UHGV virus genome: UHGV-0297988
Source of the DNA: a virus
Length of the DNA stretch: 15,254 nt
Reading direction: 5' to 3' (one strand)
In this document: one piece after another, positions 1,138 through 14,243 of the stretch
Position numbering within the stretch: the stretch's first letter is position 1
How the letters are laid out: each line of letters opens with the position of its first letter
Program-made: the position numbers and the translations under genes
Notes under the pieces: generated by a model
What the model saw: only the letters and a program-made list of their open reading frames with translations
The model's database searches: none
Told to the model about the DNA's origin: nothing

Positions 1138-1161
1138 GTTACGGGGCGGCGACCTCGCGGG
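1138..1161 (+). other. cosN terminase nicking site; 12-nt cohesive end GGGCGGCGACCT at 1144-1155
   Basis: Exact match to the lambda cohesive end GGGCGGCGACCT at 1144-1155, flanked by lambda-like sequence (CAGGTTACG upstream, CGCGGGTTTTCGCTATTTATGAAAATTTTCCGG downstream). Confidence 0.9.
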
Positions 1162-1878: not shown

Positions 1879-5559
<3,681 letters not shown>

Positions 5560-5579
<20 letters not shown>

Positions 5580-6891
5580 TCTCCCGCATATTGCCAGTAT
5601 GGCCTTTAATGAGCCGCTGATGCTTGAACCCGCCTATGCGCGGGTTTTCTTTTGTGCGCTTGCAGGCCAGCTTGGGATCAGCCGCCTGACGGATGCGGTG
5701 TCCGGTGACAGCCTGACTGCCCAGGAGACACTCGCGACGCTGGCGTTATCCGGTGATGATGACGGACCACGACAGGCCCGCAGTTATCAGGTCATGAACG
5801 GCATCGCCGTGCTGTCGGTTTCCGGCACGCTGGTCAGCCGGACGCGGGCGCTGCAGCCGTACTCGGGGATGACCGGTTACAACGGCATTATCGCCCGTCT
5901 GCAACAGGCTGCCAGCGACCCGATGGTGGACGGCATTCTGCTCGATATGGACACGCCAGGCGGAATGGTGGCGGGGGCATTTGACTGCGCTGACATCATC
6001 GCCCGTGTGCGTGACATAAAACCGGTATGGGCGCTGGCCAACGACATGAACTGCAGTGCAGGTCAGCTGCTTGCCAGTGCCGCCTCCCGGCGTCTGGTCA
6101 CGCAGACCGCCCGGACAGGCTCCATCGGCGTCATGATGGCTCACAGTAATTACGGTGCTGCCCTGGAGAAACAGGGCGTGGAAATCACGCTGATTTACAG
6201 CGGCAGCCATAAGGTGGATGGCAATCCTTACAGCCATCTTCCGGATGACGTCCGGGAGACACTGCAGTCCCGGATGGACGCAACCCGCCAGATGTTTGCG
6301 CAGAAGGTGTCGGCATATACCGGCCTGTCTGTGCAGGCTGTGCTGGATACCGAGGCTGCAGTGTACAGCGGTCAGGAGGCCATTGATGCCGGACTGGCTG
6401 ATGAACTTGTTAACAGCACCGATGCGATCACCGTCATGCGTGATGCACTGGATGCACATAAATCCCGTCTCTCAGGAGGGCGAATGACCAAAGAGACTCA
6501 ATCAACAACTGTTTCAGCCACTGCTTCGCAGGCTGACGTTACTGAGGTGGTGCCAGCGACGGAGGGCGAAAACGCCAGTGCGGCGCAGCCGGACGTGAAC
6601 GCGCAGATCACTGCAGCGGTTGCGGCAGAAAACAGCCGCATTATGGGGATCCTCAACTGTGAGGAGGCTCACGGACGCGAAGAACAGGCGCGCGTTCTGG
6701 CAGAAACCCCCGGTATGACCGTGGAAACGGCCCGCCGCATTCTGGCCGCAGCACCACAGAGTGCACAGGCGCGCAGTGACACTGCGCTGGATCGTCTGAT
6801 GCAGGGTGCACCGGCACCGCTGGCTGCAGGTAACCTGGCATCTGATACCAATAAAGAATTACTTAATACACCTGAAGCTTTACCGGTATAA
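5560..6891 (+). CDS. C: Head maturation protease / scaffold fusion gpC (S49-type serine protease)
   Basis: Frame continuous with the track ORF 5446..6891; lambda-like start is GTG at 5560 (then TAELRNLPHIASMAFNEPLML), preceded by AGGAGGAG at 5548-5555 and overlapping the B stop by 20 nt as in lambda. 443 aa here versus 439 in lambda as recalled. Confidence 0.9.
6274..6891 (+). CDS. nu3: Scaffolding protein gpNu3, in-frame internal initiation within C
   Basis: Internal ATG at 6274 (MDATRQMFAQ...), 714 nt into the C frame, the same offset as Nu3 within C in lambda (recalled). Shares frame and stop codon with C. Confidence 0.7.
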   Translation: MDATRQMFAQKVSAYTGLSVQAVLDTEAAVYSGQEAIDAGLADELVNSTDAITVMRDALDAHKSRLSGGRMTKETQSTTVSATASQADVTEVVPATEGENASAAQPDVNAQITAAVAAENSRIMGILNCEEAHGREEQARVLAETPGMTVETARRILAAAPQSAQARSDTALDRLMQGAPAPLAAGNLASDTNKELLNTPEALPV

Positions 6892-9698: not shown

Positions 9699-10090
9699 AA
9701 CACACTGACATTCGTGCCGCAGTGCTGGATGCACTCGAGCAGCATGAACACGGGGCGACGCTGTTTGATGGTCGCCCCGTTGTTTTTGACGAAGAGGATT
9801 TTCCTGCGATCGCGGTTTATCTGACGGATGCAGAGTATACCGGTGAAGAGCTGGATGCAGATACCTGGCGGGCCACGCTGCATATTGAGGTGTTTTTACC
9901 GGCACAGGTACCGGATTCAGAGCTTGATCAGTGGATGGAAAGCCGGATTTACCCGGCGATGACTGCGATCCCGTCACTGGCAGGACTGATTACCACGATG
10001 GTTACGCAGGGCTATGAGTATCGTCGTGATGACGATATGGCGTTATGGAGTTCTGCAGATCTGACTTATTCCATTACATACGAGATGTGA
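9695..10090 (+). CDS. U: Tail tube terminator protein gpU
   Basis: 131-aa [46 protein letters not shown]...; ATGA overlap with the Z stop; lambda gpU length. Confidence 0.94.
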
Positions 10091-10097
10091 GGACGAT

Positions 10098-10838
10098 ATG
10101 GCAACACCAAATCCTCTTGAGCCGGTAAAAGGTGCCGGTACCACTCTGTGGGTTTACAACGGCAAGGGTGATGCTTATGCAAACCCGTTGTCAGACGATG
10201 ACTGGCAGCGACTGGCTAAGGTGAAGGATCTGACGCCGGGCGAGATGACGGCAGAATCCTACGATGATAACTACCTGGATGATGAAGACGCGGACTGGAC
10301 CGCGACCGGTCAGGGGCAGAAATCTGCAGGTGATACCAGTTTTACGCTGGCCTGGAAACCGGGAGAGGAAGGCCAGAAAGGGCTTATAGGCTGGTTTGAA
10401 AGCGGCGATGTCCGGGCCTATAAAATCCGTTTTCCGAATGGCACGGTGGATGTGTTTCGTGGCTGGGTCAGCAGTATCGGTAAAGCGGTGACGGCGAAGG
10501 AAGTGATCACCCGCACGGTGAAGGTCACCAATGTGGGACGCCCGTCGATGGCAGAAGATCGCAGCACGGTAACAGCGGCCACCGGCATGACGGTAACGCC
10601 AGCCAGTGCTTCCGTAGTGAAAGGGCAGAGCACCACGCTGACCGTGGCATTCCAGCCGGAAGGCGCAACCGACAAGAGCTTCCGTGCGGTGTCAGCGGAT
10701 AAAACAAAAGCCACCGTGTCGGTCAGTGGTATGACCATCACCGTGAACGGCGTTGCTGCAGGCAAGGTCAACATTCCGGTTGTATCCGGTAATGGTGAGT
10801 TTGCTGCGGTTGCAGAAATCACCGTCACCGCCAGTTAA
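10098..10838 (+). CDS. V: Major tail tube protein gpV with C-terminal Ig-like (Big_2-type) domain
   Basis: 246-aa [40 protein letters not shown]...; the C-terminal approximately 90 residues ([60 protein letters not shown]...) have the alternating hydrophobic/Thr/Ser/Val pattern of an Ig-like domain, as known for lambda gpV. Confidence 0.95.
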
Positions 10839-10853
10839 TCCGGAGAATCAGCG

Positions 10854-11276
10854 ATGTTCCTGAAAACAGAATCATTTGAACATAACGGCGTGACCGTCAC
10901 GCTTTCTGAACTGTCAGCCCTGCAGCGTATTGAGCATCTTGCCTGGTTGAAAGAGCAGGAAAAAAAGGCTGAATCCAGCGGCAACCAGCAGGTGTCTGTA
11001 GAGGATCTTATCAGAGGCGGGGCGTTTCTGGTGGCGATGTCTCTGTGGCATAACCATCCGCAGAAGACAAAGCTGCCGTCCATGAATGAAGCCATTACGC
11101 AGATTGAGCAGGAAGTGCTTACCACCTGGCCCACGGAGGCAATTGCTCAGGCTGAAAACGTGGTGTACCGGCTGTCCGGAATGTCTGAGTTTGTGGTGAA
11201 TAATTCCCCTGAACAGGCAGATGACGCCGGGCCTGCAGAGCCTGTTTCTGCGGGAAAGTGTTCGACGGTGAGCTGA
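10854..11276 (+). CDS. G: Tail assembly chaperone gpG
   Basis: 140-aa ORF MFLKTESFEHNGVTVTLSELSALQRIEHLAWLKEQEKK...; lambda gpG length and sequence; the slippery heptamer lies 6 codons before its stop. Confidence 0.94.
   Translation: MFLKTESFEHNGVTVTLSELSALQRIEHLAWLKEQEKKAESSGNQQVSVEDLIRGGAFLVAMSLWHNHPQKTKLPSMNEAITQIEQEVLTTWPTEAIAQAENVVYRLSGMSEFVVNNSPEQADDAGPAEPVSAGKCSTVS
11252..11258 (+). promoter_or_regulatory. Programmed -1 ribosomal frameshift slippery heptamer G GGA AAG
   Basis: GGGAAAG at 11252-11258 sits in the G frame as G|GGA|AAG (codons at 11253 and 11256). A -1 slip puts the next codon at 11258 (GTG), which continues into the 144-codon T frame ending 11692. Same heptamer and geometry as the lambda G-T frameshift. 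Confidence 0.9.
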
Positions 11277-11692
11277 GTTTTGCCCTGAAACTGGCGCGTG
11301 AGATGGGGCGACCCGACTGGCGCGCCATGCTTGCCGGGATGTCATCCACGGAGTATGCCGACTGGCACCGCTTTTACAGTACCCATTATTTTCATGATGT
11401 TCTGCTGGATATGCACTTTTCCGGGCTGACGTACACCGTGCTCAGCCTGTTTTTCAGCGATCCGGATATGCATCCGCTGGATTTCAGTCTGCTTAACCGG
11501 CGCGAGGCTGACGAAGAGCCTGAAGATGATGTGCTGATGCAGAAAGCAGCAGGGCTTGCCGGAGGCGTTCGTTTTGGCCCGGACGGGAATGAAGTTATCC
11601 CCGCTTCCCCGTATGTGGCGGACATGACGGAGGATGACGTAATGCTGATGACAGTATCAGAAGGGATTGCAGGAGGAGTCCGGTATGGCTGA
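11258..11692 (+). CDS. T: Tail assembly protein T frame; expressed as gpG-T fusion by -1 frameshift (join 10854..11257 with 11258..11692)
   Basis: -1 frame ORF overlapping the last 19 nt of G, translating FDGELSFALKLAREMGRPDWRAMLAGMSSTEYADWHRFY...; no independent RBS, consistent with frameshift-only expression as in lambda. Confidence 0.9.
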   Translation: MFDGELSFALKLAREMGRPDWRAMLAGMSSTEYADWHRFYSTHYFHDVLLDMHFSGLTYTVLSLFFSDPDMHPLDFSLLNRREADEEPEDDVLMQKAAGLAGGVRFGPDGNEVIPASPYVADMTEDDVMLMTVSEGIAGGVRYG

Positions 11693-14243
11693 ACCGGTAG
11701 GCGATCTGGTCGTTGATTTAAGTCTGGATGCGGCCAGATTTGACGAGCAGATGGCCAGAGTCAGGCGTCATTTTTTCGGTACGGAAAGTGATGCGAAAAA
11801 AACAGCGGCAGTCGTTGAACAGTCGCTGAGCCGACAGGCGCTGGCTGCACAGAAAGCGGGGATTTCCGTCGGGCAGTATAAAGCCGCCATGCGTATGCTG
11901 CCTGCACAGTTCACCGACGTGGCCACGCAGCTTGCAGGCGGGCAAAGCCCGTGGCTGATCCTGCTGCAACAGGGTGGTCAGGTTAAGGACTCCTTCGGCG
12001 GGATGATCCCCATGTTCAGGGGGCTTGCCGGTGCGATCACCATGCCGATGGTCGGGGCCACCTCGCTGGCGGTGGCGACCGGTGCGCTGGCGTATGCCTG
12101 GTATCAGGGGGACTCAACCCTGTCCGATTTCAACAAAACGCTGGTCCTTTCCGGCAATCAGGCGGGACTGACGGCAGATCGTATTCTGGCCCTGTCCAGA
12201 GCCGGGCAGGCGGCAGGGCTGACGTTTAACCAGACCAGCGAGTCACTGACGGCGCTGGTGAATGCAGGTGTGCGTGGTGGTGAGCAGTTTGAGGCGATCA
12301 GCCAGAGTGTGGCGCGTTTCTCCTCTGCATCCGGCGTGGAGGTGGACAAGGTCGCTGAAGCCTTCGGGAAGCTGACCACAGACCCGACGTCGGGACTGAC
12401 AGCGATGGCACGTCAGTTCCATAACGTGACGGCGGAGCAGATTGCGTATGTTGCTCAGTTGCAGCGTTCCGGAGATGAAGCCGGGGCATTGCAGGCGGCG
12501 AACGAGGCCGCAACGAAAGGGTTTGATGACCAGACCCGACGCCTGAAAGAGAACATGGGCACGCTGGAAACCTGGGCAGACAGGACAGCACGGGCATTCA
12601 AATCCATGTGGGATGCGGTGCTGGATATTGGTCGTCCTGATACCGCTCAGGAGATGCTGATTAAGGCAGAGGCTGCGTTTAAGAAAGCAGACGACATCTG
12701 GAATCTGCGCAAGGATGATTATTTTGTTAACGATGAAGCGCGGGCGCGTTACTGGGATGATCGTGAAAAGGCCCGTCTTGCGCTTGAAGCCGCCCGAAAG
12801 AAGGCTGAGCAGCAGACTCAACAGGACAAAAATGCGCAGCAGCAGAGCGATACCGAAGCGTCACAGCTGAAATATACCGAAGAGGCGCAGAAGGCTTACG
12901 AACGGCTGCAGACGCCGCTGGAGAAATATACCGCCCGTCAGGAAGAACTGAACAAGGCACTGAAAGACGGGAAAATCCTGCAGGCGGATTACAACACGCT
13001 GATGGCGGCGGCGAAAAAGGATTATGAAGCGACGCTGAAAAAGCCGAAACAGTCCGGCGTGAAGGTGTCTGCGGGCGATCGTCAGGAAGACAGTGCTCAT
13101 GCTGCCCTGCTGACGCTTCAGGCTGAACTCCGGACGCTGGAGAAGCATGCCGGAGCAAATGAGAAAATTAGCCAGCAGCGCCGGGATTTGTGGAAGGCGG
13201 AGAGTCAGTTCGCGGTACTGGAGGAGGCGGCGCTACGTCGCCAGCTGTCTGCACAGGAGAAATCCCTGCTGGCGCATAAAGATGAGACGCTGGAGTACAA
13301 ACGCCAGCTGGCTGCACTTGGCGACAAGGTTACGTATCAGGAGCGCCTGAGCGCGCTGGCGCAGCAGGCGGATAAATTCGCACAGCAGCAACGGGCAAAA
13401 CGGGCCGCCATTGATGCGAAAAGCCGGGGGCTGACTGACCGGCAGGCAGAACGGGAAGCCACGGAACAGCGCCTGAAGGAACAGTATGGCGATAATCCGC
13501 TGGCGCTGAATAACGTCATGTCAGAGCAGAAAAAGACCTGGGCGGCTGAAGACCAGCTTCGCGGGAGCTGGATGGCAGGCCTGAAGTCCGGCTGGAGTGA
13601 GTGGGAAGAGAGCGCCACGGACAGTATGTCGCAGGTAAAAAGTGCAGCCACGCAGACCTTTGATGGTATTGCACAGAATATGGCAGCGATGCTGACCGGC
13701 AGTGAGCAGAACTGGCGCAGCTTCACCCGTTCCGTGCTGTCCATGATGACAGAAATTCTGCTTAAGCAGGCAATGGTGGGGATTGTCGGGAGTATCGGCA
13801 GCGCCATTGGCGGGGCTGTTGGTGGCGGCGCATCCGCGTCAGGCGGTACAGCCATTCAGGCCGCTGCGGCGAAATTCCATTTTGCAACCGGAGGATTCAC
13901 AGGAACCGGCGGCAAATATGAGCCAGCGGGGATTGTTCATCGTGGTGAATTTGTCTTCACGAAGGAGGCAACCAGCCGGATTGGTGTCGGCAACCTGTAC
14001 CGCCTGATGCGGGGCTATGCGGAAGGTGGTTATGTGGGCGGTGCCGGAAGTCCGGCGCAGATGCGGCGGGCTGAAGGCATTAATTTTAATCAGAACAATC
14101 ACGTGGTGATTCAGAACGACGGTACGAATGGTCTGCCAGGTCCACAGATGATGAAGGCAGTGTATGACATGGCCCGCAAGGGTGCCCGTGATGAAATTCA
14201 GGCACAGATGCGCGATGGTGGTCTGTTCTCCGGAGGTGGATGA
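11685..14243 (+). CDS. H: Tail tape measure protein gpH
   Basis: 852-aa ORF from ATG 11685 (MAEPVGDLVVDLSLDAARFDEQMARVRRHF...) with AGGAGGA at 11671-11677; overlaps the T stop by 8 nt as in lambda. Long Ala/Gln/Lys/Glu-rich helical middle and a Gly-rich hydrophobic segment near the C-terminus. The track ORF begins at an upstream TTG (11667) that I reject. Confidence 0.95.
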   Translation: MAEPVGDLVVDLSLDAARFDEQMARVRRHFFGTESDAKKTAAVVEQSLSRQALAAQKAGISVGQYKAAMRMLPAQFTDVATQLAGGQSPWLILLQQGGQVKDSFGGMIPMFRGLAGAITMPMVGATSLAVATGALAYAWYQGDSTLSDFNKTLVLSGNQAGLTADRILALSRAGQAAGLTFNQTSESLTALVNAGVRGGEQFEAISQSVARFSSASGVEVDKVAEAFGKLTTDPTSGLTAMARQFHNVTAEQIAYVAQLQRSGDEAGALQAANEAATKGFDDQTRRLKENMGTLETWADRTARAFKSMWDAVLDIGRPDTAQEMLIKAEAAFKKADDIWNLRKDDYFVNDEARARYWDDREKARLALEAARKKAEQQTQQDKNAQQQSDTEASQLKYTEEAQKAYERLQTPLEKYTARQEELNKALKDGKILQADYNTLMAAAKKDYEATLKKPKQSGVKVSAGDRQEDSAHAALLTLQAELRTLEKHAGANEKISQQRRDLWKAESQFAVLEEAALRRQLSAQEKSLLAHKDETLEYKRQLAALGDKVTYQERLSALAQQADKFAQQQRAKRAAIDAKSRGLTDRQAEREATEQRLKEQYGDNPLALNNVMSEQKKTWAAEDQLRGSWMAGLKSGWSEWEESATDSMSQVKSAATQTFDGIAQNMAAMLTGSEQNWRSFTRSVLSMMTEILLKQAMVGIVGSIGSAIGGAVGGGASASGGTAIQAAAAKFHFATGGFTGTGGKYEPAGIVHRGEFVFTKEATSRIGVGNLYRLMRGYAEGGYVGGAGSPAQMRRAEGINFNQNNHVVIQNDGTNGLPGPQMMKAVYDMARKGARDEIQAQMRDGGLFSGGG

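What the first reader, a model, noticed from the sequence alone, without database searches (positions are those of the whole stretch)
11240..11270. Programmed -1 frameshift site producing the G-T fusion
The heptamer GGGAAAG is positioned in the G frame as G GGA AAG, 6 codons before the G stop, and the -1 frame stays open for 144 further codons to a stop that overlaps the H start. This is the conserved tail assembly chaperone frameshift of long-tailed phages; a small fraction of ribosomes would make G-T. No obvious strong downstream pseudoknot is needed in the lambda case.
Basis: partly seen in the sequence, partly recalled or inferred. Interest (0 to 1): 0.45.

Follow-up and report, generated by a model that had tools for sequence, protein, structure and literature searches.

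The report
Lambda-type G-T tail chaperone frameshift site
This is the well-known programmed -1 ribosomal frameshift site of phage lambda's tail assembly chaperone genes G and T, present here in a close lambda relative; it is real and functional-looking but ordinary and already described.

Summary
GGGAAAG occurs once in the window (11252-11258), in the G frame as G GGA AAG. AAG is followed by five sense codons and the G stop (TGA 11274-11276). The -1 frame runs 144 codons from 11258 to TGA 11690-11692, which overlaps the H start (ATG 11685).

The 839-nt G-T segment matches phage lambda 9711-10549 end to end at 93.5% identity. The sequence from 11235 to 11322 is identical to lambda. G and T meet NCBI's equivalog models for lambda G and lambda T, and they lie between the major tail protein gene V and the tape-measure gene H.

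In 263 of 264 related loci, a heptamer ending in A AAG sits exactly five sense codons before the G stop (GGGAAAG, AAAAAAG or GGAAAAG). T has no usable start codon or ribosome-binding site.

So this is the lambda G/GT programmed -1 frameshift, which published work on lambda puts at about 4% shifting and a G:GT ratio near 30:1. It is already known.

One point remains open. A stable RNA structure is predicted to begin 7 nt downstream of the site. It is well conserved but has little covariation, and it might help set the rate. The evidence for that is inconclusive.

The parts
10098..10838 (+). Gene V, major tail tube protein (upstream neighbour that defines the synteny)
   Evidence: Pfam Phage_TTP_12 at 8e-70 plus Big_2. 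Collinear with lambda V.
10842..10845 (+). Shine-Dalgarno sequence GGAG of G, 8 nt before the ATG
   Evidence: Read directly from the sequence. Anti-SD duplex energy -6.6 kcal/mol.
10854..11276 (+). Gene G, tail assembly chaperone; the zero-frame product of 140 aa
   Evidence: ORF and translation. PF06894 at 2e-53. TIGR01674 equivalog at 189.6 bits against a cutoff of 74.45.
11225..11276 (+). Stretch in which both the G frame and the T (-1) frame are open; any shift into T must happen here
   Evidence: The -1 frame is open only from 11225. In PhiR12_1 and E. albertii the equivalent stretch is only 34 nt and starts 9 nt before the heptamer.
11252..11258 (+). Slippery heptamer G GGA AAG, the -1 shift site
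   Evidence: Only copy in the window. Phasing confirmed. Identical to the lambda site. 263 of 264 related loci keep an ...A AAG heptamer at this position.
11258..11692 (+). T reading frame (-1 relative to G), 144 codons plus stop; translated only as the C-terminal part of the 279-aa GT fusion (10854..11258 joined to 11258..11692)
   Evidence: Translation. PF06223 at 2e-14. TIGR01715 equivalog at 185 bits against a cutoff of 77.35. phrog_32165 is a 290-position profile covering G and T together. No usable SD, and no start codon after the slip site in sister lineages, which read GTC, GCA or GCC.
11266..11336 (+). Predicted downstream RNA structure and candidate frameshift stimulator (function not shown). 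It has an outer stem 11266-11273/11329-11336, a small hairpin 11276-11292, and a GC-rich hairpin 11293-11326.
   Evidence: MFE -38.3 kcal/mol, z = -3.48, 0 of 200 shuffles as stable. Top 0.8% of all 82-nt segments in the window. 91.9% of cells paired in 43 unique relatives, but only one well-supported compensatory pair. Synonymous-site conservation peaks here.
11685..14243 (+). Gene H, tape measure protein; its ATG overlaps the T stop (ATGGCTGA)
   Evidence: Pfam TMP_2 at 2e-70 plus Tape_meas_lam_C. Strong SD AGGAGGAG at -10.3 kcal/mol. Collinear with lambda H.

Best explanation
This is the programmed -1 ribosomal frameshift site of a lambda-like phage's tail assembly chaperone genes.

[quoted passage not shown] Most ribosomes continue, read five more codons and stop at TGA 11274, which yields the 140-aa chaperone G. 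A small fraction slips back one base, so the tRNAs re-pair with GGG AAA. These ribosomes then read GTG TTC GAC... in the T frame up to TGA 11690, which yields the 279-aa fusion GT. In lambda this fraction was measured at about 4%.

In lambda, G and the G part of GT coat the tape measure protein H. The T part recruits the major tail protein V. The roughly 30:1 G:GT ratio fixed by the frameshift is needed for correct tail assembly, and neither protein ends up in the virion.

Shown here: the sequence geometry, orthology to lambda, family membership, conservation of the site across lineages, and the absence of an independent start for T. Taken from published lambda experiments: that the shift occurs, its rate, and the roles of the proteins. 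Inferred: that the same rate and roles apply to this particular phage.
For: Geometry.

Orthology: the 839-nt G-T segment is collinear with lambda 9711-10549 at 93.5% identity, and the whole window is about 94% identical to lambda-type phages. The sequence 11235-11322, which includes the heptamer, is identical to lambda.

Families: PF06894 and PF06223, equivalogs TIGR01674 and TIGR01715, and phrog_32165, which spans G and T.

Synteny: V-G-T-H.

Conservation: 263 of 264 loci have a heptamer ending in A AAG exactly five sense codons before the G stop. The counts are GGGAAAG 113, GGAAAAG 81 and AAAAAAG 69. GGGAAAG and AAAAAAG have nearly equal measured slipperiness: 0.277% and 0.291% alone, 3.80% and 4.26% with the IS911 stimulators (PMC4066793 supplement).

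T-frame residues E140, L141, F143, L145, L147 and A148-E150 are invariant across lineages, and they lie upstream of the first ATG in the T frame. The -1 frame opens only 9 nt before the heptamer in PhiR12_1. Entry into T is therefore confined to the slip site.

No SD precedes GTG 11258 or ATG 11303. The codon after the site is not a start codon in other lineages.

Annotations in the phage 434, phi80 and LLS records join G-T at this position.

Literature: PMC5009743 (30:1 ratio, roles of G and GT), PMC3296357 (GGGAAAG, about 96% zero frame, tRNA-Lys thiolation tunes the rate), PMC7618472, and PMC6924986 (G GGA AAG shifts almost as well as A AAA AAG).
Against: There is no direct evidence of expression for this particular sequence. 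No proteomics or ribosome profiling is available here.

The heptamer alone is not statistically unusual.

The measured intrinsic slipperiness of GGGAAAG without a stimulator (0.28%) is about 14-fold below the lambda value. The heptamer-only account is therefore probably incomplete for the rate, although not for the site.
Confidence: 0.95

Rival explanations
1. The slippery heptamer is not sufficient on its own. The conserved RNA structure that begins 7 nt downstream (11266-11336) acts as a stimulator that raises shifting from the intrinsic level of about 0.3% to the roughly 4% needed. This refines the main explanation and does not replace it.
For: The predicted three-way structure has dG -38.3 kcal/mol and z = -3.48, with a 7-nt spacer. 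It ranks in the top 0.8% of 82-nt segments in the window, 1.6% after GC correction, and is the most stable segment within G-T. The consensus fold keeps the outer stem and the GC-rich hairpin. 91.9% of cells are paired across 43 unique relatives, against 24-47% for slid controls, with a G-C to A-U compensatory change at pair 16-84. Synonymous-site identity is 0.77-0.92 for 11250-11320 against 0.57 overall, and this extends about 45 nt past the end of the dual-coding stretch. In comparisons with phi80, p = 0.002-0.03. GGGAAAG alone gives 0.277% but 3.8% with moderate stimulators (PMC4066793 supplement). The phi80-type loci, which have the less slippery G GAA AAG, fold most stably at -41.2 kcal/mol.
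Against: Most pairs never vary, so they say nothing either way. The one solid compensatory pair is confined to the phi80 lineage and is probably a single event. The small hairpin is broken in many sequences. In the 201-nt context z is only -1.38. The synonymous signal is not significant among the closer lineages (p = 0.1-0.7), and a second peak of similar height occurs at 11366-11390. Sharma et al. examined this gpG cluster and found no significant synonymous-site suppression. Their hairpin was no more stable than the local average, with ddG per nt of 0.020 +/- 0.095 (PMC4066793, Tables S4 and S8). Rfam has no match. The encoded peptide LAREMGRPDWRAMLAGM is invariant, and codon bias or recombination could explain the nucleotide conservation.
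Confidence: 0.3
2. T is translated independently, from GTG 11258 or ATG 11303, and the heptamer is coincidental.
For: the ORF listing reports an ORF that starts at GTG 11258. Several public records annotate T as a separate gene, some starting from the internal ATG.
Against: Neither candidate start has an SD at a usable distance: -4.3 kcal/mol using the GGGA of the heptamer itself, and -2.3 kcal/mol, against -6.6 for G and -10.3 for H. The codon at 11258 is GTC, GCA or GCC in sister lineages, none of which is a start codon. The T-frame residues between the slip site and the first ATG are invariant across lineages, so they are translated. According to reviews of Levin et al. 1993, T is seen only as part of GT (PMC5009743, PMC3296357).
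Confidence: 0.02
3. The fusion arises by RNA polymerase slippage at the A run (transcriptional frameshifting), not by ribosomal slippage.
For: Some relatives have a run of six A's at the site (AAAAAAG). Transcriptional slippage is known in other systems (PMC5009743).
Against: The window and lambda have only three A's, far below the runs of about 8-9 identical bases that support productive polymerase slippage (established knowledge; discussed in PMC5009743). The rate in lambda responds to tRNA-Lys U34 thiolation, which is a ribosomal effect (PMC3296357). All three heptamer variants keep the A AAG tRNA-Lys slip codon, not the run length.
Confidence: 0.01

Closest known systems
Phage lambda G / GT programmed -1 frameshift (Levin, Hendrix and Casjens 1993; Xu, Hendrix and Duda 2004, 2013, 2014)
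   Same: It is the orthologous locus. Gene lengths match (G 140 aa, T frame 144 codons, GT 279 aa). The heptamer G GGA AAG sits at the same codon. The sequence 11235-11322 is identical. The T stop overlaps the H start in the same way (ATGGCTGA), and the V-G-T-H order is the same.
   Different: There are 56 nucleotide differences in 839 nt and 25 amino-acid changes in GT. 24 of these are in the G part, concentrated in codons 31-55, and one is in T. There is an extra in-frame A AAA AAG at G codons 36-38 that lambda lacks. The window carries a joined cos site, so it is in prophage or circular form.
G-T sites of Stx-converting and Sakai-type prophages (ECs1801 cluster, A_AAA_AAG_25 of Sharma et al. 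2014) and phage ASU11
   Same: Homologous G and T with the same geometry: the slip site lies five sense codons before the G stop, with the same conserved sequence downstream.
   Different: The heptamer is A AAA AAG instead of G GGA AAG. The G parts are about 50-57% identical.
Phi80 / LLS / mEp043 G-T sites
   Same: Homologous, with the same geometry. The phi80 and LLS records explicitly annotate a slippery sequence and a joined CDS.
   Different: The heptamer is G GAA AAG, where only the A-site codon can re-pair perfectly. It is described as less slippery (PMC6924986). T is shorter at 113 codons.
E. coli dnaX and IS911/IS3 -1 frameshift signals
   Same: All use a -1 slip of tRNA-Lys on ...A AAG heptamers in E. 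coli. The downstream structure begins 5-8 nt after the site, as is predicted here.
   Different: Those signals have experimentally proven stimulators (an upstream SD-like element and a hairpin or pseudoknot) and shift at 15-50% or more. dnaX produces a shorter product. Here the rate is low, no upstream SD is present, and the downstream structure is unproven.

Membership tests
Lambda-type tail assembly chaperone G/GT -1 frameshift (Xu et al. 2004 class) | Two overlapping ORFs located between the major tail protein gene and the tape measure gene | tested here: met
   V is 10098-10838, G is 10854-11276, T is 11258-11692 and H is 11685-14243. Pfam assignments are and the lambda synteny.
Lambda-type tail assembly chaperone G/GT -1 frameshift (Xu et al. 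2004 class) | The upstream ORF belongs to the lambda G chaperone family | tested here: met
   PF06894 at 2.1e-53. TIGR01674 equivalog at 189.6 bits, cutoff 74.45.
Lambda-type tail assembly chaperone G/GT -1 frameshift (Xu et al. 2004 class) | The downstream ORF is in the -1 frame, belongs to the T family, and has no start codon or ribosome-binding site of its own | tested here: met
   PF06223 at 2.2e-14. TIGR01715 at 185 bits, cutoff 77.35. Weak or misplaced SD. Non-start codon after the site in sister lineages.
Lambda-type tail assembly chaperone G/GT -1 frameshift (Xu et al. 2004 class) | A slippery heptamer (X XXY YYZ in the zero frame) lies inside the stretch where both frames are open | tested here: met
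   G GGA AAG is at 11252-11258. Both frames are open over 11225-11276.
Lambda-type tail assembly chaperone G/GT -1 frameshift (Xu et al. 2004 class) | The slip site is conserved in position among relatives despite sequence divergence | tested here: met
   263 of 264 loci, with three heptamer variants, all five sense codons before the G stop.
Lambda-type tail assembly chaperone G/GT -1 frameshift (Xu et al. 2004 class) | The GT fusion is made at a low fixed ratio (about 4%, G:GT near 30:1), both proteins are required for tail assembly, and both are absent from virions | not testable with these tools
   Established for lambda (PMC5009743, PMC3296357). Inferred here from 93.5% identity and an identical site.
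Stimulated -1 frameshift signals (slippery site plus cis stimulator, as in dnaX, IS911, IS3) | A stable structure begins 5-9 nt downstream of the heptamer | tested here: met
   The predicted structure starts at 11266, a 7-nt spacer. dG is -38.3 and z is -3.48. It ranks in the top 0.8% of segments. In the 201-nt context, however, z is -1.38.
Stimulated -1 frameshift signals (slippery site plus cis stimulator, as in dnaX, IS911, IS3) | The structure is supported by compensatory base changes | tested here: inconclusive
   Three pairs show changes on both sides, but only one is in a well-kept helix and it is confined to one lineage. 258 of 500 shuffles reach the same number of such pairs. The covariation term is -1.18 kcal/mol.
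Stimulated -1 frameshift signals (slippery site plus cis stimulator, as in dnaX, IS911, IS3) | Reduced synonymous-site variability beyond the dual-coding stretch | tested here: inconclusive
   The peak is 0.77-0.92 against 0.57 overall. It is significant only in comparisons with phi80 (p = 0.015-0.02 beyond the G stop) and not among the closer lineages. Sharma et al. scored this cluster 'N'.
Stimulated -1 frameshift signals (slippery site plus cis stimulator, as in dnaX, IS911, IS3) | An upstream Shine-Dalgarno-like stimulator lies 6-17 nt before the heptamer | tested here: not met
   The 20 nt upstream (CCTGCAGAGCCTGTTTCTGC) contain no GGAG, AGGA or GAGG. The only anti-SD pairing uses the heptamer's own GGGA. 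Sharma's Table S4 lists SD = N.
Stimulated -1 frameshift signals (slippery site plus cis stimulator, as in dnaX, IS911, IS3) | The frameshift rate depends experimentally on the structure | not testable with these tools
   This needs reporter assays. The primary lambda papers could not be retrieved.

The most novel reading that the evidence does not exclude
The conserved RNA structure at 11266-11336 would be a genuine frameshift stimulator, so far unrecognised, shared by lambda-, phi80- and Stx-phage-type G-T sites. It would raise the intrinsic slippage of about 0.3% at ...A AAG heptamers to the roughly 4% that sets the G:GT ratio. The textbook 'heptamer-only' lambda site would then be a structured signal after all.
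Probability: 0.3. Interest if true: 0.35.

Novelty: already known. Interest (0 to 1): 0.1.

Why it matters
It matters mainly for annotation. The correct gene model here is a joined G-T coding sequence (10854..11258, 11258..11692) alongside G, not a free-standing T gene. Many public records, including the lambda RefSeq entry, still list T separately or start it at an internal ATG.

Biologically the site fixes the ratio of two chaperones that build the phage tail to the right length. Homologous G-T regions occur in about two thirds of complete E. coli genomes.

The only open scientific point is whether the conserved downstream structure helps set the rate. Settling that would tidy up a classic system but would not change the understanding of it.

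Tried and rejected
- Rfam scan of the whole window found no family at gathering threshold.
- Independent initiation of T was rejected. There is no usable SD, sister lineages have non-start codons at that position, and the T-frame residues upstream of the first ATG are invariant.
- Transcriptional slippage was rejected. The site has only three A's, and the lambda rate depends on tRNA-Lys modification (PMC3296357).
- I suspected that L237, the one locus without the heptamer, was a natural in-frame G-T fusion. It is not. Its 31-nt deletion leads into the third frame and gives a 207-aa nonsense product.
- The single-protein scan of genome contigs mostly returned near-identical lambda sequences on low-coverage contigs of unrelated bacteria, so it was no use for covariation. 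The first alignment-based scan of viral contigs was also dominated by close relatives. Diversity came from separate phi80-type and Stx-type queries.
- Attempts to read Levin 1993 and Xu 2004, 2013 and 2014 failed because the papers are not held. What those papers say about downstream sequence requirements therefore remains unverified here.
- The pooled pairwise synonymous-site scan looked striking but is inflated by non-independence. The lineage-level Fisher tests reduce it to a modest signal.

Full report
**Observation**

GGGAAAG occurs once in the window, at 11252-11258 on the + strand. Gene G runs 10854-11276 and encodes 140 aa. Its codons put the heptamer in the phase G GGA AAG. AAG (11256-11258) is followed by TGT TCG ACG GTG AGC and then TGA at 11274-11276.

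Re-reading G11258 in the -1 frame gives VFDGELSFALKLAREMGRPDW... for 144 codons, up to TGA 11690-11692. This stop sits inside ATGGCTGA, where ATG 11685 starts H. The -1 frame is closed upstream of 11225, so both frames are open only over 11225-11276.

**Chance**

The heptamer alone means nothing: 2.27 copies are expected per window. The configuration is what counts. The 15 genes of the window contain seven in-frame X_XXY_YYZ heptamers. Six are followed by -1 runs of 1-25 codons. Only this one is followed by 144 codons, and it lies five sense codons from the end of its gene. Only 1.35% of codon positions have a -1 run that long.

**Identity**

The 839-nt G-T segment aligns without gaps to lambda 9711-10549 at 93.5% identity. 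The whole window is about 94% identical to lambda-type phages. It contains the cos sequence GGGCGGCGACCT at 1144-1155, so it represents a lambda-like prophage or circular form.

Window and lambda differ at 56 positions in G-T. 30 of these lie in 10914-11034. The stretch 11235-11322, which includes the slip site, is identical. The T part has a single amino-acid change.

Family assignments:
- G matches PF06894 (2e-53) and T matches PF06223 (2e-14).
- The predicted fusion meets the NCBIfam equivalogs TIGR01674 (lambda G) and TIGR01715 (lambda T) with large margins.
- phrog_32165 is a 290-position profile that covers G and T as one protein.
- The neighbours are the major tail protein V and the tape measure protein H.

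**Comparative evidence for the site**

I collected 264 related loci from phage records, genomes and viral contigs. In 263 of them a heptamer ending in A AAG lies exactly five sense codons before the G stop. The counts are GGGAAAG 113, GGAAAAG 81 and AAAAAAG 69. The exception, L237, has a 31-nt deletion that removes the site and leads into the third frame, so it is a null allele.

The two canonical heptamers have nearly the same measured slipperiness in E. coli. Alone they give 0.277% and 0.291%. With the IS911 stimulators they give 3.80% and 4.26% (PMC4066793 supplement). G GAA AAG is described as less slippery (PMC6924986).

In PhiR12_1 and E. albertii the -1 frame opens only 9 nt before the heptamer. 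T-frame residues from E140 onward are invariant across lineages. Ribosomes must therefore enter the T frame within a few codons of the heptamer.

**T has no start of its own**

The GTG at 11258 is GTC, GCA or GCC in the other lineages. Neither GTG 11258 nor ATG 11303 has a properly spaced Shine-Dalgarno sequence (-4.3 and -2.3 kcal/mol), whereas G (-6.6) and H (-10.3) do.

**Mechanism**

By orthology, this is the lambda G/GT programmed -1 frameshift. The following comes from published work on lambda:
- Shifting occurs at G_GGA_AAG in about 4% of ribosomes.
- The G:GT ratio is near 30:1 and is required for tail assembly.
- G and the G part of GT bind the tape measure protein, and the T part binds the major tail protein.
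- Neither protein is in the virion.
- The rate is tuned by 2-thiolation of U34 of tRNA-Lys.

The sources are PMC5009743, PMC3296357 and PMC7618472. That this particular phage shifts at the same rate is inferred, not shown.

**The one open point: a downstream structure**

The 82 nt after the heptamer fold into a three-way structure that begins 7 nt downstream. Its dG is -38.3 kcal/mol and z is -3.48, and none of 200 shuffles was as stable. It ranks in the top 0.8% of all 82-nt segments in the window and is the most stable within G-T.

In 43 unique relatives, 91.9% of cells stay paired, against 24-47% when the partners are slid. The consensus fold keeps the outer stem and the GC-rich hairpin. 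Synonymous-site identity among pairs below 80% nucleotide identity is 0.77-0.92 for 11250-11320 against 0.57 overall, and this continues about 45 nt past the G stop. GGGAAAG alone gives only 0.28% in a reporter, about 14-fold below the lambda value, so some help from the sequence context is plausible.

Against this:
- Most pairs never vary.
- The only solid compensatory change (G-C to A-U at pair 16-84) is confined to the phi80 lineage.
- The count of pairs with a change on both sides is no better than shuffles.
- In the 201-nt context z is -1.38.
- The lineage-level synonymous test is significant only against phi80.
- Sharma et al. had already examined this gpG cluster. They found no significant synonymous suppression, and their hairpin was no more stable than the local average.

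I rate this as suggestive and unproven. I could not retrieve Levin 1993 or the Xu papers to see what was measured for downstream deletions.

**Verdict**

The finding is real, correctly described and correctly interpreted. It is already known, because it is the type example of its class in a close relative of lambda. Homologous G-T regions are present in 3,691 of 5,426 complete E. coli genomes. Its practical value is for annotation: the correct model is a joined G-T coding sequence. Interest is low.

Noticed in passing
window 10961-10967: There is a second in-frame, highly slippery heptamer, A AAA AAG, inside G at codons 36-38 (EKK). Lambda lacks it and reads GCAGAACAG there. A -1 slip here would terminate after one codon and give a peptide of about 39 aa. 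The heptamer occurs in 7 of 173 unique GT coding sequences. Its baseline slippage is about 0.29%, so it is probably harmless.
   Followed up: partly
window 10914-11034: 30 of the 56 differences between window and lambda in G-T cluster in G codons 31-55, a variable or mosaic patch. The T part is almost unchanged, with 8 nucleotide differences and 1 amino-acid difference.
   Followed up: partly
window 1144-1155: The exact lambda cos sequence GGGCGGCGACCT lies upstream of nu1. The window therefore spans joined cohesive ends (prophage, circular or concatemeric form), not a virion end.
   Followed up: partly
L012-L033 (genome-contig hits): Near-identical lambda G-T sequence appears on contigs of unrelated bacteria, many of them short or at about 1x coverage (Neobacillus, Pseudomonas, Shewanella, Kitasatospora, Legionella, Bradyrhizobium and others). 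This is almost certainly lambda DNA contamination in public assemblies.
   Followed up: no
L237 1564-1640 (IMGVR_UViG_2869970738_000006): A 31-nt deletion removes the AAAAAAG slip site and the G stop. The G frame then runs into the third frame and gives a 207-aa nonsense product, not a G-T fusion. This is a likely defective prophage or an assembly error.
   Followed up: yes
L001, L005, L006, L008, L009 (public phage records): Annotation of this locus is inconsistent. The lambda RefSeq entry lists T as a free-standing CDS. IdasGreatGrand, PhiR12_1, ASU11 and mEp043 start T at an internal ATG, and IdasGreatGrand calls G hypothetical. Among the records examined, only 434, phi80 and LLS join G-T at the slip site.
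   Followed up: partly
window 11366-11390: There is a second, smaller peak of synonymous-site conservation (0.78-0.80) within the T core (HRFYSTHYFHD). No explanation was sought.
   Followed up: no
window 4543-4624, 5842-5923, 12019-12100: These three 82-nt segments, inside genes B, C and H, fold more stably (-42 to -45 kcal/mol) than the segment downstream of the slip site. They were not examined further.
   Followed up: no
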